From the IMG/VR virus record IMGVR_UViG_3300046782_000157: a stretch of 64,000 bases of DNA; one strand, given 5' to 3'. Below, piece by piece: positions 3,738 to 57,384 of the stretch (positions within the stretch are counted from its first letter, which is position 1; each line of letters opens with the position of its first letter). This stretch comes from an uncultured virus (IMG/VR IMGVR_UViG_3300046782_000157) (Duplodnaviria; Heunggongvirae; Uroviricota; Caudoviricetes). The position numbers were made by a program, and so were the translations under genes. Under the pieces are notes generated by a model. The model was not told where the DNA came from. It saw nothing but the letters and a program-made list of their open reading frames with translations, and searched no databases.

Positions 3738-3738
3738 A

Positions 3739-12078: not shown

Positions 12079-12095
12079 GAGAGGGGGTGAAGTAA

Positions 12096-12536: not shown

Positions 12537-12558
12537 CGAGATACTGGGAGGGAGCGCC

Positions 12559-13146: not shown

Positions 13147-13349
13147 AAGCCAGCGATGAGATCACTCAAGCCGCACAAATACTCCTCGCTGGCGGAGATC
13201 CTCTGCGGTGGCTCAATGGGGAAGATGCGTTCGAGACAGGGATCATGTACCAGGTAGCTCTCAAGGCGATCGAGCTTCAACGCGAGATCCTTCATGAGGA
13301 TCTCGCTCGTCGTACGGCAAATGCAGTATCGAGGATGTTCAAGAGATAG
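13137..13349 (+). CDS. -1 frameshift extension of tail assembly chaperone (GT-like)
   Basis: GGGGGAA at 13137-13143; -1 frame open (GIEASDEIT...SRMFKR) to TAG 13349, overlapping the tape-measure GTG. Confidence 0.75.
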   Translation, partial: GGIEASDEITQAAQILLAGGDPLRWLNGEDAFETGIMYQVALKAIELQREILHEDLARRTANAVSRMFKR

Positions 13350-27120: not shown

Positions 27121-27465
27121 CTAGGGCGCTCGACTCAACCAGTAGAGATAGCCGCCGTGTAGGTAGCAGCCATTCCCTCCCAGGCCGATGCGCCGAATTA
27201 CACGATACTGCTGCCAAGGCGTCGCATTGTACGCCTCGGATGGGTAGCCGGGATAGCGGTACTGATCCCACGATCCGTTGGCAAACCCGAAGGCACCTTG
27301 ATACGACCCACTGTTGTGCCTCCAGTTCAGCTGCGTCTCGCACATCCCGACCGCCCAGTACAGCTTTGGCAGCCAGCTTGGACGCGGTGGTACCCTGTAC
27401 GTGCTCGCTGTTGCGACTGTCGTGAGGGCGAACCCCACGATGATCATGGCGGCGAGTCGCCTCAT
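27121..27465 (-). CDS. secreted resuscitation-promoting-factor (Rpf)-like transglycosylase
   Basis: RBS GGAGG; signal peptide; WAVGMCETQLNW..NSG.YQGAFGF...SW...A..ATPWQQ...C resembles the Rpf domain. Confidence 0.75.
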   Translation of the reverse strand: MRRLAAMIIVGFALTTVATASTYRVPPRPSWLPKLYWAVGMCETQLNWRHNSGSYQGAFGFANGSWDQYRYPGYPSEAYNATPWQQYRVIRRIGLGGNGCYLHGGYLYWLSRAP

Positions 27466-27488
27466 TGACCTCCAGTGTCTGCTGGTCG

Positions 27489-30400
27489 CTACGCATCGGG
27501 GTCTATTACCCACATCTTGCTTGCCCTGACCTCGCGCGCAGCACGGAATCCAGGCTTCACGCCTTGAACTACTACAACGTCCTTGTTCAGGCGCAGGCCC
27601 CAAAGAGCCTTTCGGAAACCAGGATACTTGTAGCGGTCTACACGGATCGACACCAGCTCGGTGCCGTCATAGCCTGCCGCGATCATCCACTCGTTTAGAT
27701 CCGGCCGGTCTATAGACTCGGGGTCAACTTCGACTCCACGAGCCTTGTTGATCTCGAAAATGTCCCGAAGGTTGCGCTGGACGACCACACCTATCCAGGT
27801 CACTTCCGTGTCGCGCCCACGCTCGTATGGAACTTCGAGCGCGGTATGGGTTGGCTCCGGGAGGCCCAATCTGGGCATGTCGGTCTTGACCTTCTGGATG
27901 AGATTATCCAGGGTGTAGATTCCGAACACGTCCGGTTGGCTAACCCAATCTTGTATCGAGGCCGATGTCTTCGGCCCGAATCCTTTGATGCGCTCGATCT
28001 CGCCCCACTCCGTGAGCCCCATCTCATCTCGTCCCTCAATCAGAGCTTGTGCCTTCGACTCTCCGATGCCAGGAATCTGGAGCAGCCCGCCGTGGAGCGT
28101 CCGATTCTGGTCGTTATATGTCCAAGTCATTTCAGCCGTATCAAAGTGTGGAGCCTCAATCAAGAAGCTATGGTTGACGGCGTCGCGGAGGGCGACCGTC
28201 TCTGGATCAATCTTGGCCTTGGAGACAGCCGAGGCTTTCGTGTTGCCGCGCGAGCCGGATGTGTTAGCCGAGGAGCGTGCCGACACGCCACGGAGTAGCC
28301 ACTTGTACCAGGTTCCTTGGTGATGGACTTTGAAGTGTCCGTCCCACCAGGCGATGTACCCGTAGGAGATCGTGTGAGCTGCGTTAAATGCGTACGAACC
28401 GGCAGTGATGCAGTCACCCCAAATTGCTCGCGCCGTCTGCTCGTCCATCTCCGGTACGTCCATTCGCTCGTGAAGCGTCTGCGCTCCTTCCCAGAAGCGA
28501 TGCCACTGCCTCTGGAACTCCTGGTCGCCTAGCTTCTTGGAAATGATGCGACGGATGTGAGCGGCGTGAGTCCAGTCAAAGTTTCCGATCTCACGGACAA
28601 TGCGCAGAATTTGTTCCTGGTAGATGATCTGATAATAAGTATCTGCCGTGATGGATGCAAGAGCAGGATGTGATACTGTGGGCTTAACGAGACCACGCTT
28701 GATGTCGATGTACGACTGAGCAGATCCGTTATGGAGCGGGCCAGGTCGAGCAAGCGCGGTGATGTCGCATACCTCTCGAAAGCTGTCAGGCTTGAGAGCG
28801 CCGCTAATGCTTCGTACAGCTCGTCCCTCATACTGAAAGATACCTGTGACGTCGTTAGCCCTGAACAATGATATGACATCCTCGTCCTCCGTCGGGATGG
28901 TGTACAGGTAGCTGGTGGGCTCGCCGATGTCGCGGCAGCATCCCGCGAGCCGATCCATCGCGTTCAGCCTGAGGTAGTCGAGCTTGAGGAGTCCGAGATA
29001 TTCTGCATCGTACTTATCAAGGCCAACAACTTTACGCACTCGTCCTTTGACAACTCGGGTGACAACGCTACACACATCTGTGATGGGCCCATTGGATACC
29101 ACAACACCCGCAGCGTGTACCCCGAATCCCTTTGCATTGCCCTCAAGGCGCGTCGCCGTCGCCAGCGCTGGATACTCAACCAGAACCTTTGACGCCTGCT
29201 CGAACTGCTCAAATGTATCTTCAATCGTGGCGCTAGCGCGAAGATCTCCTGAGGATCGTTCGATGAGGACATCCTTCACCTTCTCTACTTCATAGATTGG
29301 AATGTTGTAGACACGGGCGATATCGTCGAGGGCCAACTTGCTCTTATACATTGTAAACGTCCCAACGTCGCTGACGCAATCGCGACCATAGCGGGCGATG
29401 AGGTAGTCCACAACTTCGTGTCGTCTCTCCGCCTCGAAATCCACGTCGATGTCAGGTAGATCCTGCCGCGAGATGTCAATGAACCTCTCAAATACAAGAT
29501 GGTCAAAGAGCATTGGATTGACCTCAGTGATGCGGAGTAGCCAACACGCCAGTGAGGCGGCGGCAGATCCGCGTGCCGGGCCAACCGCAATTCCGCTGTC
29601 TTTCGCCCAGCGTAGAGAGTCGCTAACAACGAGGAAATAATCAATAAAGTCCTTCTCCTCGATGATCCCCATTTCATAGCGCAGCCTTTCCGCGTACCGC
29701 TCGCGCTCGCGGCGCGGCAGCTTGTGGCACTTGCGCTCTCGCCACCCCTGCCTCAACCACTCCCGCCAGGTCGCTTTGGAATCTTTCGTCGGATATCGGA
29801 GCATAGGCAACTTGGGCAGTTCTACTTTGCACCGTTGTGCGATCTGTTCCGTGTTGAGGATGGCATCAATCGCTTGCTTGCGGGGCACACCCGTGGCTAC
29901 GAGCTTACGCAGAATCGTGTTGTCGTTCGGGGCCACGCACAGGTCGGCGTTATAGCCCCAGCCACGGATCTGCTCCTCCAGCGTCTGCTGCTTGCCCGGC
30001 CGGACGTTATGGAGCACCTGTTGTAGCTCCTTCTCGGTCGGCATCGTGTAGTGGCAGTCGAGCGTTACCACGAGCGGGATGTCTGTCTCGCGGGAGATGC
30101 GAGCTAGAGCTTCATTAGCCAGGCACGTTTCCTTGAGTTCAGGAAATGCCTGAACCTCGATGTAATAGGAATCGCCAAAAGTACGGGCGAACCGTCTAGC
30201 CACATTTCGAGCCCTTTGGTAGGATGCGTCGCCAGCATCAATTCCTTTCCCTCCCATGAGTGAGGTGAAGAGCAAACTACTTTGGCAACCACTAAGAACG
30301 ATGAGGCCATTGCCTCTGGTGGCAAGCATACTTCCTGATACAGTGGGCTGATGGTAGAATCCTTCATTGTTAGCCTCCGTGACGAGCCGAAGTAGGTTGC

Positions 30401-42709: not shown

Positions 42710-42854
42710 TTGGCACCCTCCTTCGATGTATCCTACAATGTGCTGCAGCCATGGACAACGGCTGCAAGGGGCGTCTTCACCCCTCGGGATGTCCCTGGAA
42801 GCAGGAAGCCAGAGACACCCCGAGCGGTGGGGCGGGTTGCCCCGCCCTCGCCAC

Positions 42855-43738: not shown

Positions 43739-43784
43739 GAGTCCCTCCTTCGTGGTAGTGGTGGATTAGGCCACTAGGGATGAT

Positions 43785-43813
43785 ATCGTAAAGTGGCCTG
43801 GATGGCTAGCCAA
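43785..43813 (-). promoter_or_regulatory. possible sigma70-type promoter
   Basis: TTGGCT-17 nt-TACGAT on - strand, preceded by hairpin GATCAAAACCCC/GGGGTTTTGGTC (~43821-43854). Confidence 0.35.
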
Positions 43814-43861
43814 CCATCCCGACCAAAACCCCATGATTACCAGGGGTTTTGATCGGCATAG

Positions 43862-44191
43862 TTAACTCGTCAATGCAAGCGCCCAGGCTGCACCTTCAGC
43901 GAAGCTCTCGACTTGATAGCCCGCTTCCTTGACAGGCTCGCCCTTGTGGAGCAGGTACTGGCGAGTCGTGAGCGTTCGCTCGCGTGCGTTGTATGGATTC
44001 AAAGCGACACGGACGACTGAGAGATCGCCGTTGTCCACCTGGAGCAGCTTCGGATGTTCTTTGGCGACATGTACACAGGCCTCATTGTGAGTCCCGAGCT
44101 TCATGTTGCAGGCCTCACAGAACTTCATCTGTACGACCTTGAGGCCTGGGAACTCGAATGACTGAATCCAACCAGCTTCTGCTTTAAGCAT
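43862..44191 (-). CDS. early hypothetical protein
   Basis: RBS GAAGGAGGGTCA. Confidence 0.6.
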   Translation of the reverse strand: MLKAEAGWIQSFEFPGLKVVQMKFCEACNMKLGTHNEACVHVAKEHPKLLQVDNGDLSVVRVALNPYNARERTLTTRQYLLHKGEPVKEAGYQVESFAEGAAWALALTS

Positions 44192-44259
44192 TGACCCTCC
44201 TTCTGAAGTTCGTATGAACTCCGAGCCTATCCGTCGTGTCGGACGGACAGACTCGCAGA

Positions 44260-44439
44260 TCACTTCGCGCTGACGATCCTGTATGAAGATGCTTCATTGA
44301 CGCCGATGATAACGTCTGCTTCGCCATCTGTCGGATTGAGCATCTGGGCCAAATGTGCACGTATCTGCTCAGGCGTTTGTTCGGGGCCGACAAGCCACTC
44401 AACCTCTACTTCAATCATGATGTAGACTGGATCATCCAA
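44260..44439 (-). CDS. early hypothetical protein (59 aa, TTG start)
   Basis: Lies exactly between two hairpin elements; manually translated. Confidence 0.55.
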   Translation of the reverse strand: MDDPVYIMIEVEVEWLVGPEQTPEQIRAHLAQMLNPTDGEADVIIGVNEASSYRIVSAK

Positions 44440-44506
44440 TCAGAGCACCCTCCCTTCTGGAGTTCTGATGAACTCCGAGCCTACTCCAATGGAGTAGACT
44501 CGCAGC

Positions 44507-45022
44507 TCACCTCTTGATGCTGTCGTATGCTGCTTTGAACCAGTCCATCGCTCGTCCTTCGTCGATGCTGGAGTCGTTGTACTCGATGATGAGCGACTCC
44601 AGCTGCTCGATGCTGTAATCCTTGATCTCGTCGTCGCTGAGTGTCAGGTCTTCTTGTTCAATCTCGCCGAAGTTGTTTGTTACCTCAGGCCGTTCGCTTC
44701 TCGGAATCGCCAGCGCGAGCGCACGCAACGACTTCTCCAATGCCTTCAACCTGGCCTTGGGGAATTCACCGCCTTTGAAGTAGTGCGATGGGTTCTGGAT
44801 CGTCGGGCAGTATGCCGTCAAGCCCGAGTCCCAGTCGTCAGACTTTGCGATGACGACACGAGCGAGCTTCGCGTTGATGACTGCGAGGCCGACGGCGCAG
44901 CCGTGCGGCTTCTTGTTGCCGTTAGCTTCCGCTTCCTGCATCAATTCGCCACAGAGCCAGTGTCCGGCTCGGATGTCCAGGATGGACTCCTCCAGCACGA
45001 CCTTGGCTGTCATTCTCGGCAT
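44507..45022 (-). CDS. early hypothetical protein
   Basis: RBS; CAVG and YND motifs. Confidence 0.6.
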   Translation of the reverse strand: MPRMTAKVVLEESILDIRAGHWLCGELMQEAEANGNKKPHGCAVGLAVINAKLARVVIAKSDDWDSGLTAYCPTIQNPSHYFKGGEFPKARLKALEKSLRALALAIPRSERPEVTNNFGEIEQEDLTLSDDEIKDYSIEQLESLIIEYNDSSIDEGRAMDWFKAAYDSIKR

Positions 45023-45167
45023 TGACCCTCCTTCGGTTACGGTACTCTCATGAGCACCGGCCGGCACCCAAAGGTACCAGCCGCTGATCACTACTTTCGC
45101 CATCTCTCCCGAATGATCATCCACAATATACGGAACCAGCGTGGTGACAGAAAGATTGGCGGTTGTG

Positions 45168-45437
45168 TCATTTGTGGATGACGCCGATCAGGCGCTCGAT
45201 CGGGATGGACATCTGCTTGCCCTTGGCAGGGCCGTTTTTGGGCCAGAACTTCACCCATCGGTTTCCATGTTCGTCGGTGAAGAACTCGACAGGCATCAAT
45301 TCCCTCTTGGGGTTTCTCGGCCTGTTTACGGGCACAGTCTCTCGTCTGATAAAGTAGATGGCGTTGCCATCTGACTCCTCGACCAAGACCGACTCGACGT
45401 TGTCCAAGACGATGTTCTCCTGTGGTGCTTCAACCAT
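45168..45437 (-). CDS. early hypothetical protein
   Basis: Overlap-coupled ORF. Confidence 0.55.
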   Translation of the reverse strand: MVEAPQENIVLDNVESVLVEESDGNAIYFIRRETVPVNRPRNPKRELMPVEFFTDEHGNRWVKFWPKNGPAKGKQMSIPIERLIGVIHK

Positions 45438-45685
45438 TATGCCTCCGTGAACTTGTGAATCGCCACGGGATCGGGATCATGGGCGTCGAACAATTCAACA
45501 CCGATGTCGTCGTTCTCGTAGCGATGGATGAATAAGCCGAAGATCACACGGTTTCCGATCTTGAAGATGAGGTCGTGCTCCCAATCCATTCGTTCTGGCA
45601 ATACCGGGAGCTGGATCGCAGCTGTGACGCCAGCCTCATCATAAGTAACGACCTTGACCTTGAGGAGCTTCGGCAGATTTGTCAC
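45437..45685 (-). CDS. early hypothetical protein
   Basis: RBS after hairpin element. Confidence 0.55.
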   Translation of the reverse strand: MTNLPKLLKVKVVTYDEAGVTAAIQLPVLPERMDWEHDLIFKIGNRVIFGLFIHRYENDDIGVELFDAHDPDPVAIHKFTEA

Positions 45686-45765
45686 TTCAGCATGACCCTC
45701 CTTCGTGTAATCGGAGTCGGGTGACTCCAGCCCCCGGTGACCGCAGAGTCAACCGGGAGCTGCAA

Positions 45766-46101
45766 CTACCCTGACATCCGTCGTATGTATGCTTGTAACG
45801 GAGTGTCTCTGTTGTCTCTTTGTTCTTGGATAGTTGCCCATCGACAATTACCGGGTTCGTAGTTCCCGTCATTGTCGATTCTGTCGATCTGCTTGCCTGG
45901 TGGTCGTACTCCCATGTCCGCCAGGAAGTTCTCGAACTTGAGCCAGCGTTCGCAAACCTTAATGCCTCGTGCTCCGTACTTGTAGTACGAATCGGCATTA
46001 GGATTCATGCAACGCTGTTTCATTGTCGTCCAGATTCGGTATGTGCTGGTAGGCTTTCCACCCTCACAGTGACCATGAGTTATCTGGCCGCCGGGCTTCA
46101 T
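45766..46101 (-). CDS. HNH endonuclease
   Basis: W..MKQRC.NP...YG.RGIKVC.RW..F..F..DMG...IDRIDNDGNYEPGNCRWAT. Confidence 0.9.
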   Translation of the reverse strand: MKPGGQITHGHCEGGKPTSTYRIWTTMKQRCMNPNADSYYKYGARGIKVCERWLKFENFLADMGVRPPGKQIDRIDNDGNYEPGNCRWATIQEQRDNRDTPLQAYIRRMSG

Positions 46102-46322
46102 CCGACTTGCTGGACTGGGTAGTGCGGCTTGATGTGCTTGTTGATATAGCTGCCAACGCTTTGCGCGTTAGCCGCTACAACAGCACGTTGGTATGGCACG
46201 CCTGTGTAGGCGTACGTCTTGCCGCTCTTGTATGTGACGTACATGATGCTCTTGTCACTATCCCAAGAGATCGACTCGACATTGCTGGAGTGTGGAACTG
46301 GAATCGGTCGTCGTGTGCTCAT
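46098..46322 (-). CDS. KTSC-domain protein
   Basis: SSNV.SI.WD.....V.YKSG.TY.Y.GVP...A.SVGSYINKHIK. Confidence 0.85.
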   Translation of the reverse strand: MSTRRPIPVPHSSNVESISWDSDKSIMYVTYKSGKTYAYTGVPYQRAVVAANAQSVGSYINKHIKPHYPVQQVG

Positions 46323-46516
46323 TTCGCACGCGCTTCCCCGGCCATAAACCGCTTGGCTGCTTCCTTGGGCTTCATCCCCGCCATGTACCAGTCGTGCAAC
46401 AGATCTTCGTCGCACTCGTCGCGCATGGTCAGATAGATTTCGCCCGTCTCAGCTTCGCGCATCTTGCTGACTTGATCGCCGAAGCGATCGCTCCAGTGAG
46501 AGAACGTGTAGCTCAT
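46319..46516 (-). CDS. early hypothetical protein
   Basis: ATGA-coupled. Confidence 0.55.
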   Translation of the reverse strand: MSYTFSHWSDRFGDQVSKMREAETGEIYLTMRDECDEDLLHDWYMAGMKPKEAAKRFMAGEARAK

Positions 46517-46770
46517 GTGATCGAGTCCAGGAATTCTTGCGCTTCACTTGCTGAGCAAGGATTATCCCACTCATCGAACATGTCTCTAGCTAGCTCCCAT
46601 GCTGTCGGCAGCCGCTTATTGCGGTACCACAGCAGACAGAGAGCGTCGAGCCACATGAATGGACGCTGATCACCAGGGCCACGCTCGACATCTGGGATGT
46701 TGTCAAGCTTGATGCCGGCCTCGCGCATCTCGCGCTCAGCTTCTTCCCAGGCGTGTTCGGGCTCGGTCAT
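46513..46770 (-). CDS. early hypothetical protein
   Basis: ATGA-coupled. Confidence 0.55.
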   Translation of the reverse strand: MTEPEHAWEEAEREMREAGIKLDNIPDVERGPGDQRPFMWLDALCLLWYRNKRLPTAWELARDMFDEWDNPCSASEAQEFLDSIT

Positions 46771-46970
46771 GTGATCACCTTGTTGGCCTTCAGCAGATCC
46801 ACGATCGTCTGGCGGTCGGCGTTGACGTTACCAGTCCGAGCTAGCCAGAGACAGTAGTCGATGATCTCGCCTCGGTTCTTGTACTCAACGCTGAAGATCT
46901 CCTTGTTCGTGGATGTCTTCACCGTTACGACATGTCCGACACGAGTCACGCTAATGTTGACCTGAGCCAT
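46767..46970 (-). CDS. early hypothetical protein
   Basis: TGATG-coupled. Confidence 0.55.
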   Translation of the reverse strand: MAQVNISVTRVGHVVTVKTSTNKEIFSVEYKNRGEIIDYCLWLARTGNVNADRQTIVDLLKANKVIT

Positions 46971-47500
46971 CACCAGCCTTCTTTCGCCGCACAAATTGGG
47001 CCAATGCCGAGTGCGCGACTGCGCTCGTCGGTGAGCGTCCGTCCGCAGATCCCGCAATGGCCCAGCTCGCGCCCGTAGCGCATGCTAGCCTCTTTGGGGT
47101 CTTTGGCGATCTCCGTCATGATAGACTTCCTGTGCTCCGTGTTCTTGATCGGATAGCGTTCATCCGATGCACGGACGCTCAGGAATGTGTAGCCTGCCCA
47201 CTTGCCCTCGGTCGGCTTGTCCACATGGTAGAACTTCAGGACATCGTCCATCGGATCGACCACTGCGTACCTGCCGGCCGGGATGTCAGGCCAGTCTCGA
47301 CTGACCTGCTTCTTAGGCAGTCCCTTCATGACGTCAATGATCCGGCTCGCTTCGCCCTTGCTGAGCTTTCGCGTGCCGGCATCGACCTTGGCGATGAAAG
47401 CAGCTTGCTTCTCCGTGATCTCATGCTTCTTGGCGAGATCGTGGAGATACTCAAGCTGATTCTCCGATGCTGGATCCTCTGTCCAGGCTGTCGTTGCCAT
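46970..47500 (-). CDS. DUF6011-like zinc-binding protein
   Basis: CGICGRTLTDERSRALGIGPICA; N-terminal ASENQL.YL.DL. Confidence 0.75.
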   Translation of the reverse strand: MATTAWTEDPASENQLEYLHDLAKKHEITEKQAAFIAKVDAGTRKLSKGEASRIIDVMKGLPKKQVSRDWPDIPAGRYAVVDPMDDVLKFYHVDKPTEGKWAGYTFLSVRASDERYPIKNTEHRKSIMTEIAKDPKEASMRYGRELGHCGICGRTLTDERSRALGIGPICAAKEGW

Positions 47501-47572
47501 ATGCCCTCCTTCGGGTTTGGTACTCGGCTGAGCACCGGCCCACCTCATTGCTGAGATGAGCCGCTGATCAAG

Positions 47573-47752
47573 TCACTTCAGGCATTTGAGGCAAGTAATG
47601 GGATGTCGAGTCTTGACCAGCACCATTGGATGACCATTCCACGGCTTCACGGGCTGTCCGCAGACGGGTTCGCCCGATGAGTTCCGCTCATGGTACTTCA
47701 AGCTGCTGTCAAGACTGGGCGTGATCTGCATCCTGATTTGAAGAGTCACCAT
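47573..47752 (-). CDS. small Cys/His protein
   Basis: H...CG...ITCLKCL; manually translated. Confidence 0.5.
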   Translation of the reverse strand: MVTLQIRMQITPSLDSSLKYHERNSSGEPVCGQPVKPWNGHPMVLVKTRHPITCLKCLK

Positions 47753-47940
47753 CAGTTACGCCCGATTTCGCATGCCCGTGTCTGACATTCTGGATCGCTG
47801 GACTTAACTTGGTTGGCCAGCATCAGAATGTATTGCGGCCCGCCATGATAATCCCCACCACAGCAAGCTGTGCCATCGCTGCGAAGACTGTGCACTGTTC
47901 GCCACTTTCGATGAACAAGCACTTGACGTGTCTTCACCAT
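47752..47940 (-). CDS. small Cys/His protein
   Basis: RBS; VH...CCG...C...C. Confidence 0.55.
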   Translation of the reverse strand: MVKTRQVLVHRKWRTVHSLRSDGTACCGGDYHGGPQYILMLANQVKSSDPECQTRACEIGRN

Positions 47941-48010
47941 TTGACCCTCCTTCTGGTACTCGGCTGAGCACCACACCCTGCCTTCGAGGGCAGGATGCGC
48001 TACTCAGTTG

Positions 48011-48190
48011 TTATCCGTGGTATTCATTGCTGAGGTGTGAGACGATATGGATGTGAGTATGTACCGGAGCGTTTTCCAGAAGATGACGGATGTAGAACGT
48101 CGCTGTTGCCAGCTCCGTGAACTTCTTGAACGTGCCTTCGCCGGATTCGCCACCCATCCACACTTCGTACACAACGTGTGGTTCGTCCAC
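48011..48190 (-). CDS. early hypothetical protein
   Basis: RBS then GTG. Confidence 0.55.
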   Translation of the reverse strand: MDEPHVVYEVWMGGESGEGTFKKFTELATATFYIRHLLENAPVHTHIHIVSHLSNEYHG

Positions 48191-48255
48191 GCTACCCTCC
48201 TTCTGGTGCTCTTCTGAACACCGAGCCTCACAATTGTCTTTGTGAGACTCGCTAC

Positions 48256-48561
48256 TCAGCTGACTGTTTCTTGGTAGATGATACCTCTGATCATCGGGGC
48301 CCACTCGGGCGAGTCAGGCCCGTAGTTGGTCGCTGAGAACACGTCCATGTCGGCCCTGACGACACTCGGCGTCTCGTTGTCAGCTGCTGGTTCCTCGGGG
48401 TCGAGCTTCTGACGGATCTCTAGCTTGAACATCGGCGTGCCCATGCTGTCGCAGATGATCATCTCGACATCACCTTCGGGAAGTGAGACTCTTGATACGA
48501 GAGAGAGATCATCGGCAACTTCGAGATACCACGGAGTTGGAATCAGCTCGGGTTCATCCAT
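48256..48561 (-). CDS. early acidic hypothetical protein
   Basis: RBS; stop inside hairpin element. Confidence 0.6.
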   Translation of the reverse strand: MDEPELIPTPWYLEVADDLSLVSRVSLPEGDVEMIICDSMGTPMFKLEIRQKLDPEEPAADNETPSVVRADMDVFSATNYGPDSPEWAPMIRGIIYQETVS

Positions 48562-48628
48562 CTGACCCTCCTTCGTTGCGGTACTCGGATGAGTACCGCG
48601 CCCACCCCATGCGGGGAAGACGCGCTAC

Positions 48629-48766
48629 TCATTTCTTTTTCTCGCAGTCGTCACAGATGCCGGCCACGATGTTGCTTCCGGTGATCTGTGCTTGAAATAG
48701 ATCCTGCGATGTGACCTGGACGTACTTGAATTTGTGACACTTGGTGCAGTAGCCAACAAGTCTCAT
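48629..48766 (-). CDS. small zinc-finger protein
   Basis: CTKC...CDDC; manually translated. Confidence 0.55.
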   Translation of the reverse strand: MRLVGYCTKCHKFKYVQVTSQDLFQAQITGSNIVAGICDDCEKKK

Positions 48767-48999
48767 CCTGGGCACTCGCTTTCAAGATGAACGAGATCGA
48801 GATCACCCTGGCTGTCGATCGCATCGTAGACTCTCAGCCCGAACTTGATGGGCACGCGAATGCGATTTGGCTGGGTTTTCCAGGTTTTTACCTGGCCGTT
48901 CACTCGCCAGCGTTGACACGTACCGTCGGCATTCTTGTAGAAGTCATGATGCAGAACGTCGCCGGGCTTCAACGCCTTGGCTTGTTCTAGCGTGATCAT
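48763..48999 (-). CDS. early hypothetical protein
   Basis: RVNG.VKTWKT.P...RVP.KFGL. Confidence 0.65.
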   Translation of the reverse strand: MITLEQAKALKPGDVLHHDFYKNADGTCQRWRVNGQVKTWKTQPNRIRVPIKFGLRVYDAIDSQGDLDLVHLESECPG

Positions 49000-49217
49000 G
49001 TCGACACCTGGCCCTGGGGCGAGATGCCGCCGTAGATCGGCTGACCATGATCAGTCCAGTGCATCGTGAAGCACAGATAGTTGTTCGGCAGATCGAGTCC
49101 GCCCTTCTGAACAACCACGTTTTCAAGTTTCGGGTTGTTAAGAAGAACATCAATGCTTTTCTTCTGCGCTGTAGTCATGGTATTGAAAGCCTCTTGGGTC
49201 ATCTTGACCTTGATCAC
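48996..49217 (-). CDS. early hypothetical protein
   Basis: Coupled ORF. Confidence 0.55.
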   Translation of the reverse strand: MIKVKMTQEAFNTMTTAQKKSIDVLLNNPKLENVVVQKGGLDLPNNYLCFTMHWTDHGQPIYGGISPQGQVST

Positions 49218-49597
49218 TTATGTGACCTCCATGCGACGATCTTGTCTCCGGGCAGGAAGATGACTGGCTTCTCCATCTGCGAGTGAAGAAAGCGATGCTT
49301 GTGCTTAACAACCTGTTCGCCCTCTGTCACCAGGCCACAGTCGCCCTCGATGTAGTACACACCGAATTGGAATGTGACGTAGTGCTCGAACTCTTGCCCT
49401 GACCATTTCGATTCAAGCTTGTTGTCTGGATCGAACGTCCAGGTGCCGAGATCCGAGAACTTCTTGCCAATCTGATATTCTCTGTCTGGATCTTCATCCA
49501 TGTAGGCCACGGTGTAGCAGAAGTCAAGCATCTGCTGATCCCAGATGAGATCCTTGCGACGCTTACCCTTCCGCTCCACATATATGTTGAGTGGCAT
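49214..49597 (-). CDS. early hypothetical protein
   Basis: RBS after element. Confidence 0.6.
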   Translation of the reverse strand: MPLNIYVERKGKRRKDLIWDQQMLDFCYTVAYMDEDPDREYQIGKKFSDLGTWTFDPDNKLESKWSGQEFEHYVTFQFGVYYIEGDCGLVTEGEQVVKHKHRFLHSQMEKPVIFLPGDKIVAWRSHK

Positions 49598-49662
49598 TCT
49601 GCCCTCCTTCGTGGTGTCGTATGAACACCGACCCACTCACTGTTAGGTGAGTGAGTCGCTAT

Positions 49663-49950
49663 TCAATCTTCATCCGATCTCAGCTTCTCTGTGAGCAGTC
49701 TATGGATCTCGCGGAGGATAGCTTGCTGATCGGACGGACTGAACCTCTGCTCCCAGATCGGCTTCTTGACTGGCGTCCTGGGTGGCTTTGCTGCTGGCTG
49801 TGGCTTCGGCTTGGCAGTGTACTCGCGAATGTCGTTTTTCCTGATAACATCCTTGATCCCACGACCGTGCAATCGCCACCATGCCATGATGAGTGCGATG
49901 GTGAACATTGCTGCCGGGATGTCGATGAAGATGAACTTGACGTAACTCAT
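49663..49950 (-). CDS. early membrane protein
   Basis: N-terminal hydrophobic helix; stop inside element. Confidence 0.55.
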   Translation of the reverse strand: MSYVKFIFIDIPAAMFTIALIMAWWRLHGRGIKDVIRKNDIREYTAKPKPQPAAKPPRTPVKKPIWEQRFSPSDQQAILREIHRLLTEKLRSDED

Positions 49951-50190
49951 GATGAAGGCGATAGTGCTACTAGGAACACGTACACGCCTATGATCAAGAG
50001 CGCGATCACAATTCCCAACACGAGGAGTCGGGACGCCATCCAGAGAATGACGAACTGATCTTGCCATCGTTTTGGGATCTTGATGGTCACCTTACATCGA
50101 TGCTGTTCCCGAGTGGTTTCATTTGACCCTCCTTCGGATGATGCTCATTTGAGCACCCGCCAACACACTCTGCGATGTGCCAGCGGCTGA

Positions 50191-50424
50191 TCAAATACGA
50201 ACAGCGATGAAGTCTCGCAGCCTTCCGTTGCCGATTAGGATTGTTGCGATCCACTGGTGGGTGTCGTTTCCTGTTCGGCGCTCGCGGATGATGCGTTGTC
50301 TGTTTCCCGCAAAATCATGCAAAGCGTGCATCGCGGTTGGTGCTTCGATGACAGCAACTTTGCGGAATGTCCCTGCGCCTCTGCCATCGTACCACGTTCT
50401 GATCTCGAATGTTCCCATTGTCAT
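50191..50424 (-). CDS. early hypothetical protein
   Basis: Coupled; stop inside element. Confidence 0.55.
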   Translation of the reverse strand: MTMGTFEIRTWYDGRGAGTFRKVAVIEAPTAMHALHDFAGNRQRIIRERRTGNDTHQWIATILIGNGRLRDFIAVRI

Positions 50425-50792
50425 CTCAGCAGAACCTCCGGCCCGAACCAGATGTGGTTCATGACCGTGACGACACGATGTGCGATCTTATGAGCCATCC
50501 AACCATCACGATGAGGGTTGTCTTCTTCGAGGCCAGCGTTCTCTGCCTCGATCTCGATGTTGTCTGTGATCGGCACCATGAGCATCTTCATCAGCTCTGG
50601 TGGACATGCTTCCCAAATGCAAGCAGGGTTGCCCCACTTGGCATCCTCGATCGCAATACGTTCTGCGAGCTTAGGCGTGAGCCCACGCTCGTGAACGCAT
50701 TCCGAACAGAGCCATGTTCTGACGATGATGTTGTCGTCGGTGCTTTCCGTGACCATGGTTGTCGGACATCCGAAACACCTGATGATTGCCAT
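50421..50792 (-). CDS. early zinc-ribbon protein
   Basis: RBS; CFGC...CSEC. Confidence 0.6.
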   Translation of the reverse strand: MAIIRCFGCPTTMVTESTDDNIIVRTWLCSECVHERGLTPKLAERIAIEDAKWGNPACIWEACPPELMKMLMVPITDNIEIEAENAGLEEDNPHRDGWMAHKIAHRVVTVMNHIWFGPEVLLR

Positions 50793-50857
50793 TTGACCCT
50801 CCTTCGTTGTGATGAATACCAACCGCTCCGGGGGACAACTCCCGGAGCAGCTGCTAG

Positions 50858-51148
50858 TCACCAGCTTTTGTACGGTGACAGCGCCTTGACGCGATCGAGA
50901 TATTCCGAGGCGTCGTGAAGCTGTGTACCTTCTTCATCGCAAGTGTCGAACTGGTCGAACTTGTCGATGAAAGCCCACTCGCCAGCGTCACCCATGTAGA
51001 TGTAGCCGACGAGTCTGCCGTCAATCTCGTACACGTAGCACTCGTAGTTCGTGTCGATGTCTGGGTAATCACCAATGATGTCTTTGGCATACAGCTCTGC
51101 TGTGTGCTCTAGATCCTGACGAAACTCAGACTCAGTCATTTCTTTCAT
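50858..51148 (-). CDS. early acidic hypothetical protein
   Basis: Coupled; stop inside element. Confidence 0.6.
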   Translation of the reverse strand: MKEMTESEFRQDLEHTAELYAKDIIGDYPDIDTNYECYVYEIDGRLVGYIYMGDAGEWAFIDKFDQFDTCDEEGTQLHDASEYLDRVKALSPYKSW

Positions 51149-51348
51149 GGGATCTGCTTGACGAAGACGGCTGCTCTGAACTTGGTGTCAACGCGATTGA
51201 AGCCGTGGTTGATCAGCTTCTCGATCAGACGTTCACCGTCGTCTACGTGAATGATCTTGACGGATTCGATCTCTTTCTGATCGATGATGGACACGACTTT
51301 CACTTGCTTGTCGCTGACCGGGATCAGTGAAACGCGCTTAACGCTCAC
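51145..51348 (-). CDS. early hypothetical protein
   Basis: Coupled ORF. Confidence 0.55.
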   Translation of the reverse strand: MSVKRVSLIPVSDKQVKVVSIIDQKEIESVKIIHVDDGERLIEKLINHGFNRVDTKFRAAVFVKQIP

Positions 51349-51566
51349 GCTGTCACCTGATCCTTTGTGATCCAGAGCTGGCCGGAACCTGTGCCCAAGC
51401 TGTCGTACGCTCGATACAGCTTCCAGTGCTTATCGCAGCCATGACCCCACGGCCCGTAACGAGTTTTGAAGTCGTACGGCCCTGGTGTCTTCATGCCTTC
51501 TTGATTGCAGAAATCGCAATCGGGAATGCGAGGCACGACGCAGACTTTTCCCTTTTCTGCTTTCAT
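51345..51566 (-). CDS. early Cys-containing protein
   Basis: CDFC...YD.KT..GPW...C...G.G.GQ. Confidence 0.65.
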   Translation of the reverse strand: MKAEKGKVCVVPRIPDCDFCNQEGMKTPGPYDFKTRYGPWGHGCDKHWKLYRAYDSLGTGSGQLWITKDQVTA

Positions 51567-51638
51567 TCTGTGCGACCCTCCTTCGTTTTGGTGGTTTGAA
51601 CACCAGCCCTGTCGGATTATATCTGACAGAGCTGCTAC

Positions 51639-51962
51639 TCAATACCTGCTTTTCGAGACGAGCTTGCCGTTGTCGAAGCAGAACTGATAGCTGCCGTTCT
51701 GGCTGAGAATGCCGTAGTAGATACAACGGCTGTTCAATGTGCCGCCGTAGCCACCGACAGTTGTGTCGTCGCTGCTCTGAGGACTGCCGAACGAGCTTCT
51801 CACGTAGCTTTCGCTGACGCCAATTGGCATGATAGCGAAAGCATTGGGATCGACCTGAGCACTTGACTTATCGCTCGCGTCGGTGATCCCGTGAAGTGCG
51901 AATGCTCCACCGCCTACAAAGAGGCTGAGTAGCAGCAGAATGGTGATGAATGCGCCTTTCAT
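51639..51962 (-). CDS. exported protein with BamE/BLIP-like domain
   Basis: Signal/TM helix; F..M.IG.S...V...FGSP; F.NGKLVSK. Confidence 0.6.
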   Translation of the reverse strand: MKGAFITILLLLSLFVGGGAFALHGITDASDKSSAQVDPNAFAIMPIGVSESYVRSSFGSPQSSDDTTVGGYGGTLNSRCIYYGILSQNGSYQFCFDNGKLVSKSRY

Positions 51963-52048
51963 TTTACGACCTTCCTTCGTTTTGTTTTTATTTGGTTCTG
52001 TGTCTGCTGACACAAGCCGCTACACGTTGTCCTGAGTAGCAGCTTCTA

Positions 52049-52369
52049 TCAGTTGACGATACTGTGATCCTTGATGCTGATCCAGCCGCATTCGCCTTCA
52101 ATACACATCACGATTCCTCGCAATGTCGGTCTGCTGTCAAGCCCTTCGCCGCCGCCATAGCGGTTGCTAGGATCGAAATCACTGATCCAGACACAGATTT
52201 CATATCCGAGTTGCTCGGCGTAACAGTAGAAGATGATCTGATCACCTTGGACACCAGCTACTGTCCAGTGAGGGCTGACATATTCGCCTTCATACTGATT
52301 GGCGATCCAGTCAGCTTTGACTTCGCGGTCAGTTGCTGTCCAAACTTTTGCTATGAACTCTGGCTTCAT
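52049..52369 (-). CDS. early hypothetical protein
   Basis: RBS; stop inside element. Confidence 0.6.
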   Translation of the reverse strand: MKPEFIAKVWTATDREVKADWIANQYEGEYVSPHWTVAGVQGDQIIFYCYAEQLGYEICVWISDFDPSNRYGGGEGLDSRPTLRGIVMCIEGECGWISIKDHSIVN

Positions 52370-52434
52370 TGGCCCTCCTTCGTTTTTGTGTTCTGTAGTA
52401 CAAGCCGCGTCGGTTGTCCACGACGCAGCTTCTG

Positions 52435-52533
52435 CTACAGATGTCCGACTGCGCGCCCAATGAGTGCGCAGATGATGACGACGATTGGCGCAGCCGTGAT
52501 ATACGTTGGCCAAGCATCTTTCCACTTGTACAT
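52435..52533 (-). CDS. small membrane peptide
   Basis: MYKWKDAWPTYITAAPIVVIICALIGRAVGHL between two elements. Confidence 0.5.
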   Translation of the reverse strand: MYKWKDAWPTYITAAPIVVIICALIGRAVGHL

Positions 52534-52607
52534 GTGTACCTTCCTTTGTTTTTTATCGTTCAAGGCCGAGCGGGTTGTCCTTCGCTCGACCTTCAACGCG
52601 CGGCTTG

Positions 52608-53549: not shown

Positions 53550-54189
53550 TTCGTTCCTCCTTCGGAACTCCGGAATTGCCGTTCCGGTATCGGGAACCGC
53601 GGTACGCGGCTCGCGAGACGCGATACCGGAAATTGAAATCGGGAATCCGGTCGCGCCTCGCGAGCCGTCCGAGGTCGAGAGAATCGAATCGAATCTCTCG
53701 ACCCCGGCGGCCCGCCGAAGGAAGGAAGGTCTACGGCTCGCGCGCCTACGCTCTAGAGCCCGGGCGCCGCCCCTATCTACGGGGGACGGCGACCCTACGC
53801 GCGTCCGATCGAGTCCCCCGGGCGGCTATAGGGCGGGCGGGGGAGGGGAAGCCGTAGACCGCCCCTCCGAAGCCCGCGCGTAGCGATCGCGCGGCTCCTC
53901 CGACTAGTACCGCTCGCCTCTCTCCTCGGCTCGACCGAGGGATAACGTCGGCGCCCGTCTCCGGCTCCCTAAGCCTATTAGGGGGTCGGACGGGAATCCG
54001 CGTAACCCTAAACCGAGATCCCCGCCACGTAGCCTCCCTAGGCTACGGGAGGGTGGAGGGTTGGATACTAGGGGGTCTAGAAAATCCCTGCTAATAGGGA
54101 CTATTCAGTGATCGGACGGGACGGGCTAGACCCGCATCAATTAGCCCGAAAAATGTAGAAAAGGGACTCCGGCCACGTACCGGCAAACC

Positions 54190-54420
54190 TGAGGTGAAAC
54201 ACAAAATTTGCTCAATTGCAATTGCTAAAAACAGTGTTAGAAACAAATTGATGTAAAAATCATGAAAACCACCCCTTTTCCAGCTAAAAATCACAAAAAT
54301 CATGAAAAATCACCCATCAATATGAAAAACATACAGAAAAATCCAAAATAAAAACCAATTCTGCAGAAAACCCCTGGAAATCAACACCGTTTTCCAAATA
54401 GAAAACGCACCAATTCACTT
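54190..54420. other. AT-rich A-tract region at strand divergence; candidate terminus/pac or origin
   Basis: Many A4-A6 runs; AAAATCATGAAAA twice. Confidence 0.45.
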
Positions 54421-54727
54421 CATACGCGCGTACGCGCCCGCGACCCCTCCACGTTCTGCAGATTTTCTCCGCCTACGCGCGTACACGCCCGTACGGGAGG
54501 GCACTCTCGCGCGTAAGGCGGGCGCGGGCGTAGCGCGCGCGAACATGAGTTGTTAATAGAACTTAAATGCGCGCGCCCCCGCGCACCCGCCCCCGCGCGC
54601 GACACAAATAACAACTAAATGCGCGCGCGTACGTGCGCGTAAGAGCGCGACCCCCATCCGACCCCCATCCGACCCACCCCGCAGGTAGAATCACCCCACA
54701 CTCCACACCCCACAAAGGAGGCGCACA

Positions 54728-56699: not shown

Positions 56700-56724
56700 C
56701 ATCTAACCAATGAAAGGAGAGCAG

Positions 56725-57384
56725 ATGCGAAAGATCATTGTGGCGCTGGCAGTGGCCGGTGCTACGTTCGGGATCGCGACCGCAGTCAGCGCGAGCATCC
56801 CAAGCCCCAACGGCGTGTTTCATGGTTGTTATGCTCTGCACAACCAGACGACCGACAAGGGCGTTCTGCGCTTGGTCAACTTCGATCAAGGCGAGGGTTG
56901 CCGCTTCTATGAGGCACCAGTCGCGTGGAACAAGGCAGGCCCGACTGGCCCCAAGGGGGCAACAGGCCCGCCTGGCCCAAGAGGCCCAACCGGCAAGCCA
57001 GGCCCAACTGGCCCGAAAGGCCCCAAAGGAACAACTGGGCCGAAGGGTGCGACAGGCCCGCCAGGCCCGAAGGGCGTCACTGGTGCTCCGGGGCCAAAGG
57101 GCGCCACTGGTGCTCCTGGCCCCAAGGGTGCTACTGGGCCCAAAGGCCCGACAGGGATGAGAGGCCCAACCGGGCCCAAAGGCCCAACCGGCCCCAGAGG
57201 GCCAACGGGCACTGGTCAGCGTGGAGCGACTGGGCCAACAGGCCCAGGTGGGAAAGACGATGACGACAACTTCACCATCCTGCCGGTCTGCGAGAACACG
57301 TCGTCTGGTGAACTGCACGTCAGTCCGCCCCACAGCTGTACAGGCCAGGACGAGATCATCATCCATCTCGTGAAGGCACCATAA
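56725..57384 (+). CDS. secreted collagen-like protein
   Basis: Signal peptide; long Gly-X-Y run (GPKGAT). Confidence 0.85.

What the first reader, a model, noticed from the sequence alone, without database searches (positions are those of the whole stretch)
44192..52598. Fifteen covarying hairpin elements punctuate the early-gene array like cassette boundaries
Seen on the coding (-) strand: [4-6 nt outer arm, usually the upstream stop, e.g. UGAGUA]-G-[10-14 bp stem]-loop-[stem]-G-[outer arm, e.g. UGYUCA]-[often a second hairpin]-RBS (GAAGGAGGGUCA-like)-start. Example at 47941-48006: UGAGUA G CGCAUCCUGCC CUCGAA GGCAGGGUGUG G UGCUCA GCC GAGUACC AGAAGGAGG. Stem sequences differ between copies, yet all 15 keep a G.G mismatch at the stem base and a U.G wobble at pair 5, with many compensatory changes. 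The wobbles work only on this strand, so it is a single-stranded structure read by shape. Inference: RNA processing sites that cut the polycistron into units (analogous to T7 early RNase III sites), binding sites for a phage or host protein, or attC/REP-like ssDNA recombination sites that shuffle small genes. I do not recognise a described family.
Basis: partly seen in the sequence, partly recalled or inferred. Interest (0 to 1): 0.92.

Follow-up and report, generated by a model that had tools for sequence, protein, structure and literature searches.

The report
Hairpin punctuation between phage early genes
An uncultured soil phage separates its small early genes with fifteen copies of a shape-conserved RNA hairpin followed by a ribosome-binding site, a new variant of a known kind of phage gene punctuation, at which strains also gain, lose and swap genes.

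Summary
All 15 elements lie on the minus (coding) strand between 44189 and 52602. Each has an outer arm, an invariant G.G mismatch, a U.G wobble at inner pair 5, a 10-14 bp covarying stem and a GAAGGAGGG-type ribosome site. A covariance model finds exactly these 15 in the 64 kb window and none elsewhere. G.U pairs outnumber A.C by 34 to 1, and all 15 fold better on the minus strand, so this is a sense-strand structure, most simply mRNA. Rfam has no match.

The family occurs only in one clade of related soil phages, always upstream of the SNF2 helicase gene. A second hairpin reuses the 3' outer arm in about half to two thirds of copies, with covariation.

Natural strain variants break inside the elements: 17 of 30 listed joint ends, on 15% of the sequence. 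One deletion runs between two elements across 19 shared letters. The phage encodes no integrase, transposase or RNase III.

My best reading is mRNA punctuation, probably cut by host RNase III, with gene swapping by short homology as in T4 PeSLs. No cutting has been shown. This is a new variant of a known kind.

The parts
52531..52602 (-). E1 module, from hairpin to the ATG at 52533. The G.G mismatch is at 52594/52561. Subtype with the GGACAAC loop. No second hairpin.
   Evidence: R1 37.9 bits; parse; hairpin-2 score 2 of 7.
52367..52440 (-). E2 module. G.G at 52432/52401. GGACAAC loop. The UAG stop lies in the outer arm, and the outer arm carries an extra C.A mismatch.
   Evidence: R1 43.6 bits; parse. 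Not scored for hairpin 2, because the parse failed on it.
51960..52054 (-). E3 module. G.G at 52046/52013. GGACAAC loop. The UGA stop lies in the arm. The spacer to the ribosome site is long and A-rich.
   Evidence: R1 40.2 bits; parse.
51564..51643 (-). E4 module. G.G at 51635/51603. The UGA stop lies in the arm. The second hairpin is weak or absent.
   Evidence: R1 48.9 bits; hairpin-2 score 4 of 7. A joint at 51587 in run X24 ends here.
50790..50862 (-). E5 module. G.G at 50854/50819. The loop AGUUGUCC is complementary to the loops of E1-E3. No second hairpin.
   Evidence: R1 41.9 bits; motif positions.
50120..50195 (-). E6 module. G.G at 50187/50156. Has a second hairpin. The ribosome site feeds an 11-codon mini-ORF that overlaps the next ORF by GTGA.
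   Evidence: R1 43.2 bits; hairpin-2 score 7 of 7; sequence.
49595..49667 (-). E7 module. G.G at 49659/49628. The UGA stop lies in the arm.
   Evidence: R1 51.4 bits, the best hit; hairpin-2 score 6 of 7.
48559..48633 (-). E8 module. G.G at 48625/48596. The outer arm is a perfect 6 bp. Has a second hairpin.
   Evidence: R1 43.7 bits; hairpin-2 score 7 of 7. It is one end of the segment replaced in unit B.
48188..48260 (-). E9 module. G.G at 48252/48221. Has a second hairpin. The start codon is GTG at 48190.
   Evidence: R1 48.4 bits; hairpin-2 score 7 of 7.
47938..48008 (-). G.G at 48000/47971. The real stop, UAA, lies 7 nt upstream of the arm's out-of-frame UGA.
   Evidence: R1 44.0 bits; gene frames. 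It is one end of the 436-base deletion with 19 shared letters.
47498..47572 (-). E11 module. G.G at 47564/47535. Its 3' arm and second hairpin are identical to those of E10.
   Evidence: R1 44.8 bits. The predicted lowest-energy fold adopts hairpin 2 here. Joints at 47517 and 47534 end here.
45683..45771 (-). E12 module. G.G at 45763/45727. The UAG stop lies in the arm. The second hairpin is 6 bp. A 3-codon mini-ORF precedes the GTG at 45685.
   Evidence: R1 36.7 bits. A joint at 45771 removes the neighbouring HNH gene in runs X23 and X24.
45020..45092 (-). E13 module. G.G at 45084/45057. The stop of a 26-codon ORF abuts the arm.
   Evidence: R1 43.1 bits; hairpin-2 score 7 of 7.
44437..44511 (-). 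E14 module. G.G at 44503/44475. The ribosome site is the variant GAAGGGAGGG.
   Evidence: R1 42.5 bits. A joint from 44233 to 44496 fuses it with E15 in runs X12 and X24.
44189..44264 (-). E15 module, the last of the array. G.G at 44256/44221.
   Evidence: R1 42.2 bits. The same stem core recurs at another slot in unit B. Five of the listed joint ends lie in or next to it.

Best explanation
The elements are a previously uncatalogued family of sense-strand RNA modules. They punctuate the leftward early operon of a roughly 65 kb soil phage with a contractile-tail gene set, probably of an actinobacterium.

Anatomy of one module:
- A long hairpin: a 3-7 bp outer arm that usually contains the upstream stop codon, a G.G mismatch, and a 10-14 bp stem with a wobble at pair 5.
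- In about half to two thirds of copies, a second 6-7 bp hairpin made from the 3' outer arm and a downstream strand.
- An accessible, constant Shine-Dalgarno block.

Shown here:
- The structure and its covariation.
- Its restriction to one strand.
- Its presence at every gapped gene junction of the array.
- Its restriction to one phage clade.
- Breakpoints of natural strain variants lie inside or at the edges of the modules.

Inferred:
- On the mRNA the long hairpin, 17-21 bp with one mismatch, is a target of a double-strand-specific nuclease, most likely host RNase III.
- A cut near the mismatch would leave a protective 3' hairpin on the upstream message.
- The cut would free the 3' arm to refold into the second hairpin at the new 5' end, just ahead of the ribosome site. 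Each gene block would then become a stable, evenly translated unit.
- On the DNA, the conserved arms and ribosome-site block (up to 19 identical letters between copies) act as short homologies. The phage's own recombination genes, or host recombination, delete, insert and move genes there, as described for PeSLs in T4-type phages.
For: Structure:
- 95.3% of cells pair and 15 of 17 pairs are compensatory among the 15 copies.
- 95.7% pair and 17 of 17 are compensatory among 52 distinct copies from 8 sources. That alignment is fitted to the model.

Strand: G.U versus A.C is 100 to 8, and 15 of 15 are more stable on the minus strand.

Specificity: models R1 and R2 hit only the 15 in the window. 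Rfam gives none.

Second hairpin:
- 22 of 42 copies pair 7 of 7.
- The total is 240 pairs, against 207.7 +/- 4.3 when the downstream strands are permuted (0 of 2000 reach it).
- Its 5' strand starts at the G's of the mismatch.
- In the predicted lowest-energy fold the outer arm wins in 12 of 15, so hairpin 2 needs the arm to be released first.

Ribosome site: it is mostly unpaired, mean 0.63-0.65.

Fit to RNase III substrates (review passages):
- The ideal helix is 22 bp, and cellular substrates are often about 20 bp or less.
- Mismatches restrict cutting to one strand.
- Single-strand cuts leave stabilising 3' hairpins.

Recombination:
- 17 of 30 listed joint ends fall in modules that cover 14.6% of the stretch. 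The ends are not independent.
- A deletion from 47517 to 47954 has 19 letters shared by both sides.
- A hybrid hairpin from 44233 to 44496 removes one gene.
- The f10 gene sits in different element-flanked slots in the window and in L016.
- The phage encodes a PD-(D/E)XK exonuclease and an AAA_24 protein.
Against: - No RNA ends, cleavage or expression data exist for this phage.
- The host and its RNase III specificity are unknown.
- The invariant G.G and the preferred U.G suggest a reader more specific than RNase III is known to be.
- The second hairpin is missing in about a third of copies.
- Model R2 finds nothing in the SPO1 early region, where RNase III sites are known from the literature, so there is no family link to a proven site.
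- In the comparison with unit B, 7 of 14 block ends lie at elements and 7 at junctions without elements. That is no enrichment over other gene boundaries, since elements occupy 15 of 31 junctions.
- Contig joints can be drawn towards conserved sequence by the aligner. Only 4 of 24 runs were laid, and 7 joints and 21 loose ends were not shown.
Confidence: 0.45

Rival explanations
1. The hairpins are binding sites for a dedicated RNA-binding protein, phage-coded or host. It would read the G.G and U.G shape and control translation or decay of all early messages at once, as T4 RegA and RegB act on early mRNAs.
For: - G.G is invariant in 15 of 15. U.G is preferred over the more stable C-G (42 U.G against 8 C-G in 52 copies). 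G.U wobbles are classic protein contacts (general knowledge).
- The stem length is narrow.
- The array encodes about 30 small proteins of unknown function. One is a KTSC-domain protein (46098-46322), found in every element-bearing relative. I recall Pfam suggesting that KTSC may bind RNA; no call supports that.
Against: - No partner has been identified.
- The co-occurrence of KTSC with the elements is one event on the helicase tree, a single clade of 11 rows with 89/89 support, so it adds no independent support.
- The hairpins lie 12-30 nt upstream of the ribosome site and do not cover it.
Confidence: 0.2
2. The hairpins are passive insulators and are never cut. They would block 3' exonucleases, deny Rho a loading site in the gaps, and keep a standard ribosome site unpaired whatever gene lies upstream.
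For: - The ribosome site is accessible in all modelled states.
- Hairpins fill most of each 60-95 nt gap.
- An element sits at every gapped junction, 15 of 15.
Against: A passive barrier does not explain why a mismatch and a wobble are kept at fixed positions, nor why the 3' arm has two alternative partners.
Confidence: 0.2
3. The module is a translational-coupling switch. A ribosome stopping on the stop codon in the 5' arm frees the 3' arm, which pairs with the downstream strand and so uncovers the ribosome site.
For: - The stop codon lies inside the 5' arm in 11 of 15.
- The layout has three mutually exclusive strands.
- In some copies the downstream strand (CUCC) can pair with GGAGG.
Against: - In thermodynamic models, ribosome-site accessibility rises in only 20 of 40 copies when the 5' arm is blocked. 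Means are 0.63 and 0.59; Wilcoxon p = 0.40.
- In three elements the arm's UGA is not the stop codon in use.
Confidence: 0.07
4. The elements are tail-less intrinsic terminators or pause sites that grade transcription along the early operon.
For: They are stable GC-rich hairpins straight after stop codons. I recall terminators without U-tails being reported for the early region of actinophage phiC31; that paper was not read here.
Against: - None of the 15 was flagged as a hairpin followed by a T-run, and promoter-like sites are at chance level (7 found, 6.2 expected) with none in an element. Fifteen terminators in series would therefore silence the replication genes downstream.
- The abstract of PMC3993855, seen only in the listing, says mycobacterial RNA polymerase needs a U-tract.
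Confidence: 0.05
5. The elements are folded single-stranded DNA sites for site-specific recombination, like integron attC sites or REP elements, and move gene cassettes.
For: - Genes are gained, lost and moved at the elements.
- The fold is strand-specific and carries a conserved mismatch.
Against: - The whole phage record holds no tyrosine recombinase, serine recombinase or Y1 transposase (the controls gave matches).
- The clean deletion has 19 shared letters.
- The strand is the mRNA sense strand, and the element is tied to stop codons and ribosome sites.
- The arms lack the attC core motif (consensus).
Confidence: 0.03

Closest known systems
PeSLs (promoter-early stem-loops) of T4-type phages. 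Arbiol et al. 2010, PMC2839356, and Comeau et al. 2014, PMC4122927; abstracts read.
   Same: Both are short repeated regulatory units between small non-essential early genes. Insertions, deletions and replacements between close relatives occur at the units by recombination between copies.
   Different: - PeSLs combine a strong sigma-70-like promoter with a terminator stem-loop. These elements have neither a promoter-like hexamer pair nor a T-run.
- Here the stems differ between copies and covary.
- They carry a fixed G.G and U.G signature and a ribosome-site block.
- Mini-circles could not be tested.
RNase III processing sites in phage early mRNAs. T7 early region: recalled. Bacillus phage SP82/SPO1: Panganiban and Whiteley 1983 and Mitra and Bechhofer 1994, seen only as citations in PMC4838370. 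RNase III review PMC3867540: passages read.
   Same: Both are intercistronic hairpins of about two helical turns with a local irregularity, repeated along an early polycistronic message. Cutting such a site can leave a stabilising 3' hairpin.
   Different: - No cleavage has been shown here.
- There is no sequence or model similarity to the SPO1 early region (0 hits).
- The irregularity is a single G.G mismatch and not an internal loop.
- The second hairpin that reuses the 3' arm has no counterpart that I know of.
SAS/ESAS repeats of Cluster K mycobacteriophages. Pope et al. 2011, PMC3203893; passages read.
   Same: Both are inverted repeats with a variable spacer just upstream of a conserved block at the start site. 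Both occur in one orientation, only in the non-structural half of an actinophage genome, and the function of both is unknown.
   Different: ESAS arms have a conserved 17-bp consensus, and their departures do not support RNA pairing, so the authors favour DNA-binding sites. Here the arm sequences vary freely, pairing is kept by compensatory changes, and G.U pairs work on one strand only. The start block is a plain strong Shine-Dalgarno sequence, not the 13-bp SAS.
Integron attC sites (general knowledge).
   Same: Both are strand-specific folded imperfect repeats, one after each gene cassette in a one-directional array.
   Different: There is no integrase, no attC core motif, the junctions show shared homology, and the element is tied to translation signals.

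Membership tests
Phage early-mRNA RNase III sites (T7 / SP82-SPO1 type) | Hairpin between cistrons of an early polycistronic transcript, on the sense strand. | tested here: met
   All 15 lie on the coding strand between genes.
Phage early-mRNA RNase III sites (T7 / SP82-SPO1 type) | Helix of roughly two turns with a loop, bulge or mismatch at the target. | tested here: met
   Outer arm, G.G and inner stem together make 17-21 positions. The criterion comes from review passages.
Phage early-mRNA RNase III sites (T7 / SP82-SPO1 type) | Cleaved by host RNase III at a defined bond. | not testable with these tools
   There are no RNA data and no cultured host.
Phage early-mRNA RNase III sites (T7 / SP82-SPO1 type) | Sequence and structure similarity to known sites (SPO1 early region). 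| tested here: not met
   Model R2 gives 0 hits at E up to 1 in SPO1 bases 1-14000. The RefSeq record annotates no sites.
PeSL | Contains a strong sigma-70-like early promoter. | tested here: not met
   7 promoter-like sites were found against 6.2 expected, and none lies in an element. The scan covers the sigma-70 consensus only.
PeSL | The stem-loop acts as a terminator (hairpin plus T-run). | tested here: not met
   0 of the 15 are among the terminator-like sites.
PeSL | Lies among small non-essential genes of unknown function in a variable region. | tested here: met
   Pfam named 2 of the 32 proteins scanned (the array genes and their flanks), and PHROGs gave a function for 1 of 30.
PeSL | Gene gain, loss and replacement between relatives occur at the units. 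| tested here: met
   Swaps also occur at junctions without elements.
PeSL | Recombination between units yields mini-circles. | not testable with these tools
   Only contigs were available.
Cluster K SAS/ESAS | 13-bp SAS consensus at the start site. | tested here: not met
   The block here is GAAGGAGGG. The SAS consensus was read.
Cluster K SAS/ESAS | 17-bp arms with a conserved consensus and no support for RNA pairing. | tested here: not met
   The arms vary and covary. The criterion was read.
Integron attC | Integron-type tyrosine recombinase encoded nearby. | tested here: not met
   PF00589 gives 0 matches in the 129.8 kb record. The control search matched in 14 of 14 genomes.
Integron attC | Conserved core sites at the arm ends (RYYYAAC / GTTRRRY; recalled). 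| tested here: not met
   The arm consensus is TGAGTA ... TGTTCA.
REP / RAYT | Associated Y1 (HUH) transposase. | tested here: not met
   PF01797 gives 0 matches.
Any Rfam 15 family | Score at or above a family's gathering threshold. | tested here: not met
   0 hits in the window. In E-value mode only two chance-level hits appeared, at 22 bits against thresholds of 57-58.
Intrinsic terminator | U-tract directly after the hairpin. | tested here: not met
   The 3' arm reads UGYUCA and there is no T-run.

The most novel reading that the evidence does not exclude
The G.G mismatch and the pair-5 wobble could be the address of a dedicated shape-reading nuclease or RNA-binding protein, host or phage-coded and not ordinary RNase III. 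It would cut the early polycistron at every module. The freed 3' arm would then switch partners, from the stop-codon arm to the downstream strand, and cap the new 5' end. That would be a self-contained 'cut and re-cap' RNA punctuation system whose DNA copies also serve as plug-in joints for new genes.
Probability: 0.2. Interest if true: 0.75.

Novelty: new variant of a known kind. Interest (0 to 1): 0.5.

Why it matters
- It adds a well-supported structured RNA motif that is not in Rfam. About 50 distinct copies show full covariation.
- It shows from natural soil populations that such motifs are where strains of a phage lose, gain and relocate small early genes.
- The partner switch of the 3' arm gives a concrete, testable idea of how one cut could stabilise both products.
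- Compact hairpin-plus-ribosome-site connectors without a promoter are also of practical interest as insulators for synthetic operons in high-GC bacteria.
- The general phenomenon, hairpin-plus-RBS connectors in phage early arrays, is already known. By earlier notes of this scan it is also common, which limits the surprise.

Tried and rejected
- **Cultured relatives.** Megablast of the array against 50,697 phage records found no match. The nearest cultured phages share only about 41-42% of DnaE.
- **Rfam.** The window gave nothing at gathering thresholds. The array in E-value mode gave two chance-level hits. Fifteen related loci gave only one tRNA and no ribozymes.
- **RNA evidence.** No RNA holder was listed among 24 runs, so expression and RNA ends could not be examined.
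- **Translational-coupling switch.** Thermodynamic modelling did not support it.
- **KTSC protein as partner.** It co-occurs with the elements, but all element-bearing loci form one clade, so this is no independent evidence.
- **Exact-pattern scan of IMG/VR** for the 3' arm, second hairpin and RBS. It found only two sites, both in the contig already held as L016.
- **SPO1.** The RefSeq record lists no RNase III sites, and R2 finds nothing there.
- **Enrichment of breakpoints at elements over other gene junctions.** Not seen in the comparison with unit B: 7 against 7 block ends.
- **Promoters or terminators inside elements.** None found.
- **Earlier findings of this scan, by place and by sequence.** Nothing returned.
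- **Literature search** for a described actinophage family of covarying intergenic stem-loops. Searches returned nothing relevant. Subscription journals and supplements were not searched.

Full report
**Context**

The window is most of a phage genome of about 65 kb.
- PHROG matches name a major head protein, tail sheath, tape measure, terminase and portal on the plus strand. On the minus strand they name a DnaE-type polymerase, a primase-helicase, an exonuclease and an SNF2 helicase.
- Leftward genes start near 53.6 kb, next to a divergent AT-rich region, and run down to about 24 kb.
- The nearest cultured phages infect Arthrobacter, Streptomyces and Microbacterium, at only 41-42% DnaE identity. 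Megablast of the array finds nothing.
- Twenty-four soil and rhizosphere DNA runs hold the array, and no RNA run was listed.
- The IMG/VR record G001 (129,757 bases) holds two units of about 65 kb that are roughly 72-95% alike, block by block. From window base 37001 to 64000 the window is letter-identical to G001 at an offset of 11,413. That copy is therefore not independent. The second unit, 'unit B', is an independent relative.

**The observation**

On the minus strand, every gene junction with a gap between 52.6 and 44.2 kb carries the same module.
- A parse anchored on the mismatch finds, in 15 of 15, G opposite G, then at least five standard pairs of which the fifth is U.G. Inner runs are 7-14 pairs and loops 2-14 nt.
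- On a MAFFT alignment (A1) with a 17-pair structure, 95.3% of 255 cells pair. Shuffles give 62.4 +/- 2.1%, and 0 of 500 reach the observed value. Sliding the partner gives 32-45%. Fifteen of 17 pairs change on both sides.
- Covariance model R1 finds exactly these 15 in 64 kb, all on the minus strand, and nothing else at E up to 1.
- A looser shape scan gave 20 minus-strand and 3 plus-strand hits, against 0-7 in shuffles.
- G.U cells outnumber A.C cells 34 to 1 in the window and 100 to 8 over 42 copies. All 15 fold more stably on the minus strand, at -28.3 against -19.1 kcal/mol.

The structure therefore belongs to the coding strand. Since it is tied to stop codons and ribosome sites, mRNA is the simplest carrier.

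By my own gene calls:
- The real stop codon lies in the 5' arm in 11 of 15.
- In E10, E11 and E13 the arm keeps UGA although the real stop lies 0-7 nt upstream. In E1 the stop lies 10 nt upstream.
- Elements occupy 15 of 15 gapped junctions and none of the 16 junctions where genes overlap.

**Second hairpin**

The last G of the inner stem, the mismatch G and the next five bases of the 3' arm can pair with a strand just upstream of the ribosome site.
- Twenty-two of 42 copies pair 7 of 7, and 26 pair at least 6.
- The total is 240 of 294 possible pairs, against 207.7 +/- 4.3 when the downstream strands are permuted among copies (0 of 2000 reach it).
- The variants covary, for example GGUGCUC with GAGUACC and GGAGUUC with GAACUCC.
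- The two partners of the 3' arm exclude each other. In predicted lowest-energy folds the outer arm wins in 12 of 15 and hairpin 2 in 3 of 15.
- About a third of copies lack hairpin 2.

**Relatives**

- R1 finds 15 copies in unit B and several each in L016, L018, L019, L020, L048, L049 and L050. L022, L027 and L054 give weak hits. Every hit at E below 0.05 lies on the helicase strand, and nearly all lie upstream of the helicase gene.
- The retrained model R2 finds none in 31 of 40 sources.
- On a helicase tree, all element-bearing loci form one clade of 11 rows with 89/89 support.
- Among 52 distinct copies, 95.7% of cells pair and 17 of 17 pairs are compensatory. Pair 5 is U.G in 42, C-G in 8 and G.U in 1. 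That alignment is fitted to the model. The wobble is therefore preferred, not obligatory.
- The G.G is kept in 42 of the 44 copies that could be parsed.

**What it is not**

- Rfam has no match.
- The elements carry no promoter-like hexamers and no T-run.
- G001 encodes no tyrosine or serine recombinase, no Y1 transposase and no RNase III.
- Pfam named only 2 of the 32 proteins scanned (the array genes and their flanks), as DUF6011 and KTSC. PHROGs add one HNH endonuclease.

**Gene exchange at the elements**

Comparison with unit B:
- The block between E8 and E11 is replaced, with breakpoints inside both hairpins.
- Unit B lacks the gene between E14 and E15 and has one element there.
- Unit B has extra gene-plus-element units after E1 and between two genes that overlap in the window.

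Other evidence for movement:
- The f10 gene sits after E13 in the window but between f16 and f3 in L016, in both cases flanked by elements.
- The stem core of E15 recurs in front of a different gene in unit B.

Contigs of four soil runs (4 of the 24 listed, chosen for a lower share of the window's words) gave 15 listed joints:
- 17 of 30 joint ends fall within modules, plus or minus 5 bases. The modules cover 14.6% of the stretch (binomial p about 1e-7; the ends are not independent).
- 6 joints have both ends in modules.
- 3 ends fall at gene junctions without elements.
- The cleanest joint, from 47517 to 47954 in a 2293-base contig, removes two genes and the E11 hairpin. It has 19 letters that fit either side, namely the identical 3' arm and hairpin 2 of E10 and E11. 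Nineteen letters is shorter than the 31-letter words from which I recall these contigs are built, so mis-assembly is unlikely.
- The joint from 44233 to 44496 makes a hybrid of E14 and E15.
- The joint from 45771 to 46097 removes the HNH gene.

Against a special role for the elements:
- In the comparison with unit B, 7 of 14 block ends lie at elements and 7 at junctions without elements. None lies inside a gene.
- Selection for intact genes therefore explains part of the pattern.
- The aligner may also anchor on conserved element sequence.
- Seven joints and 21 loose ends were not shown.

**Mechanism**

I favour mRNA punctuation with processing (confidence 0.45).
- The long hairpin has the size and the single irregularity that the RNase III review describes for substrates cut on one strand, which leaves stabilising 3' hairpins.
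- Hairpin 2 starts exactly at the mismatch and needs the outer arm to be released first.
- One cut could therefore protect the upstream 3' end and cap the downstream 5' end just ahead of a ribosome site that stays open.
- All of this is inference. No cutting has been shown.

The rivals are a dedicated RNA-binding protein (0.2), passive insulation (0.2), a translational-coupling switch (0.07; modelling found no systematic effect), tail-less terminators (0.05) and ssDNA site-specific recombination (0.03).

**Comparison with known systems**

- The closest analogues on the DNA side are T4-type PeSLs (abstracts).
- On the RNA side they are the RNase III sites of T7 (recalled) and of SP82/SPO1 (cited in PMC4838370).
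- Cluster K ESAS repeats look similar. Their authors found no support for RNA pairing and favoured DNA-binding sites. That is the opposite of what is seen here.
- Earlier notes of this scan describe similar hairpin-plus-RBS connectors in other phages. Those notes are leads, not evidence.

**Verdict**

This is a real family, new to Rfam, and a new variant of a known kind.

Noticed in passing
window 52574-52580, 52413-52419, 52026-32 (minus strand); 50833-50839; about 42745-42766: The loops of E1-E3 all read GGACAAC, and these three form a subtype whose inner stem starts AAG. The loop of E5, and the loop of an unrelated hairpin just upstream of the helicase ribosome site, read the complement GUUGUCC. 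The same holds in unit B. This could mean loop-loop kissing or a protein site. The motif occurs 20 times in the window against 8 +/- 3 expected.
   Followed up: partly
G001 (L009-L015), whole record: The IMG/VR record is rated 100% complete at 129,757 bases, but it is two units of about 65 kb, co-linear and 72-95% alike block by block, joined head to tail. It is probably two related phage genomes joined in assembly, or a mixed concatemer.
   Followed up: partly
window 50087-50122 and 45683-45692 (minus strand): After the ribosome sites of E6 and E12 the first ATG opens only an 11-codon and a 3-codon mini-ORF. Each stops in a GTGA overlap with the start of the real downstream ORF.
   Followed up: no
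window 45766-46101 (minus strand): An HNH endonuclease gene (phrog_3377, E = 2.5e-40) is present in the window but exactly absent in unit B and in contigs of two soil runs (joint 45771 to 46097). It looks like a free-standing homing endonuclease. Many contig ends pile up inside it.
   Followed up: partly
window 53600-54720: This is a divergent non-coding region between the leftward and rightward genes. It holds an AT-rich stretch with repeated GATTTTT-type words near 54.2-54.4 kb, GC-rich palindromes (CGCGCGC runs) near 54.5-54.65 kb, and long perfect palindromes containing TCGAGAGA at about 53700 and 53155. It is a candidate for the origin or the early promoters.
   Followed up: no
window 43739-43861 (minus strand): The first gap after the array does not carry the family element. 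It holds three different hairpins in front of the same GAAGGAGGG block. One of them (43857-43818) met the loose shape scan but neither covariance model.
   Followed up: partly
window 45091-45172 (minus strand): A 26-codon ORF (ATGA overlap with the gene upstream) ends right at the arm of E13. The same frame is also open in unit B.
   Followed up: no
window 56710-57384 (plus strand); 27121-27603 (minus strand): There is a collagen-repeat protein among the rightward genes. A protein with a weak match to the Rpf-like transglycosylase domain (26.1 bits, cut-off 27) fits an actinobacterial host.
   Followed up: no
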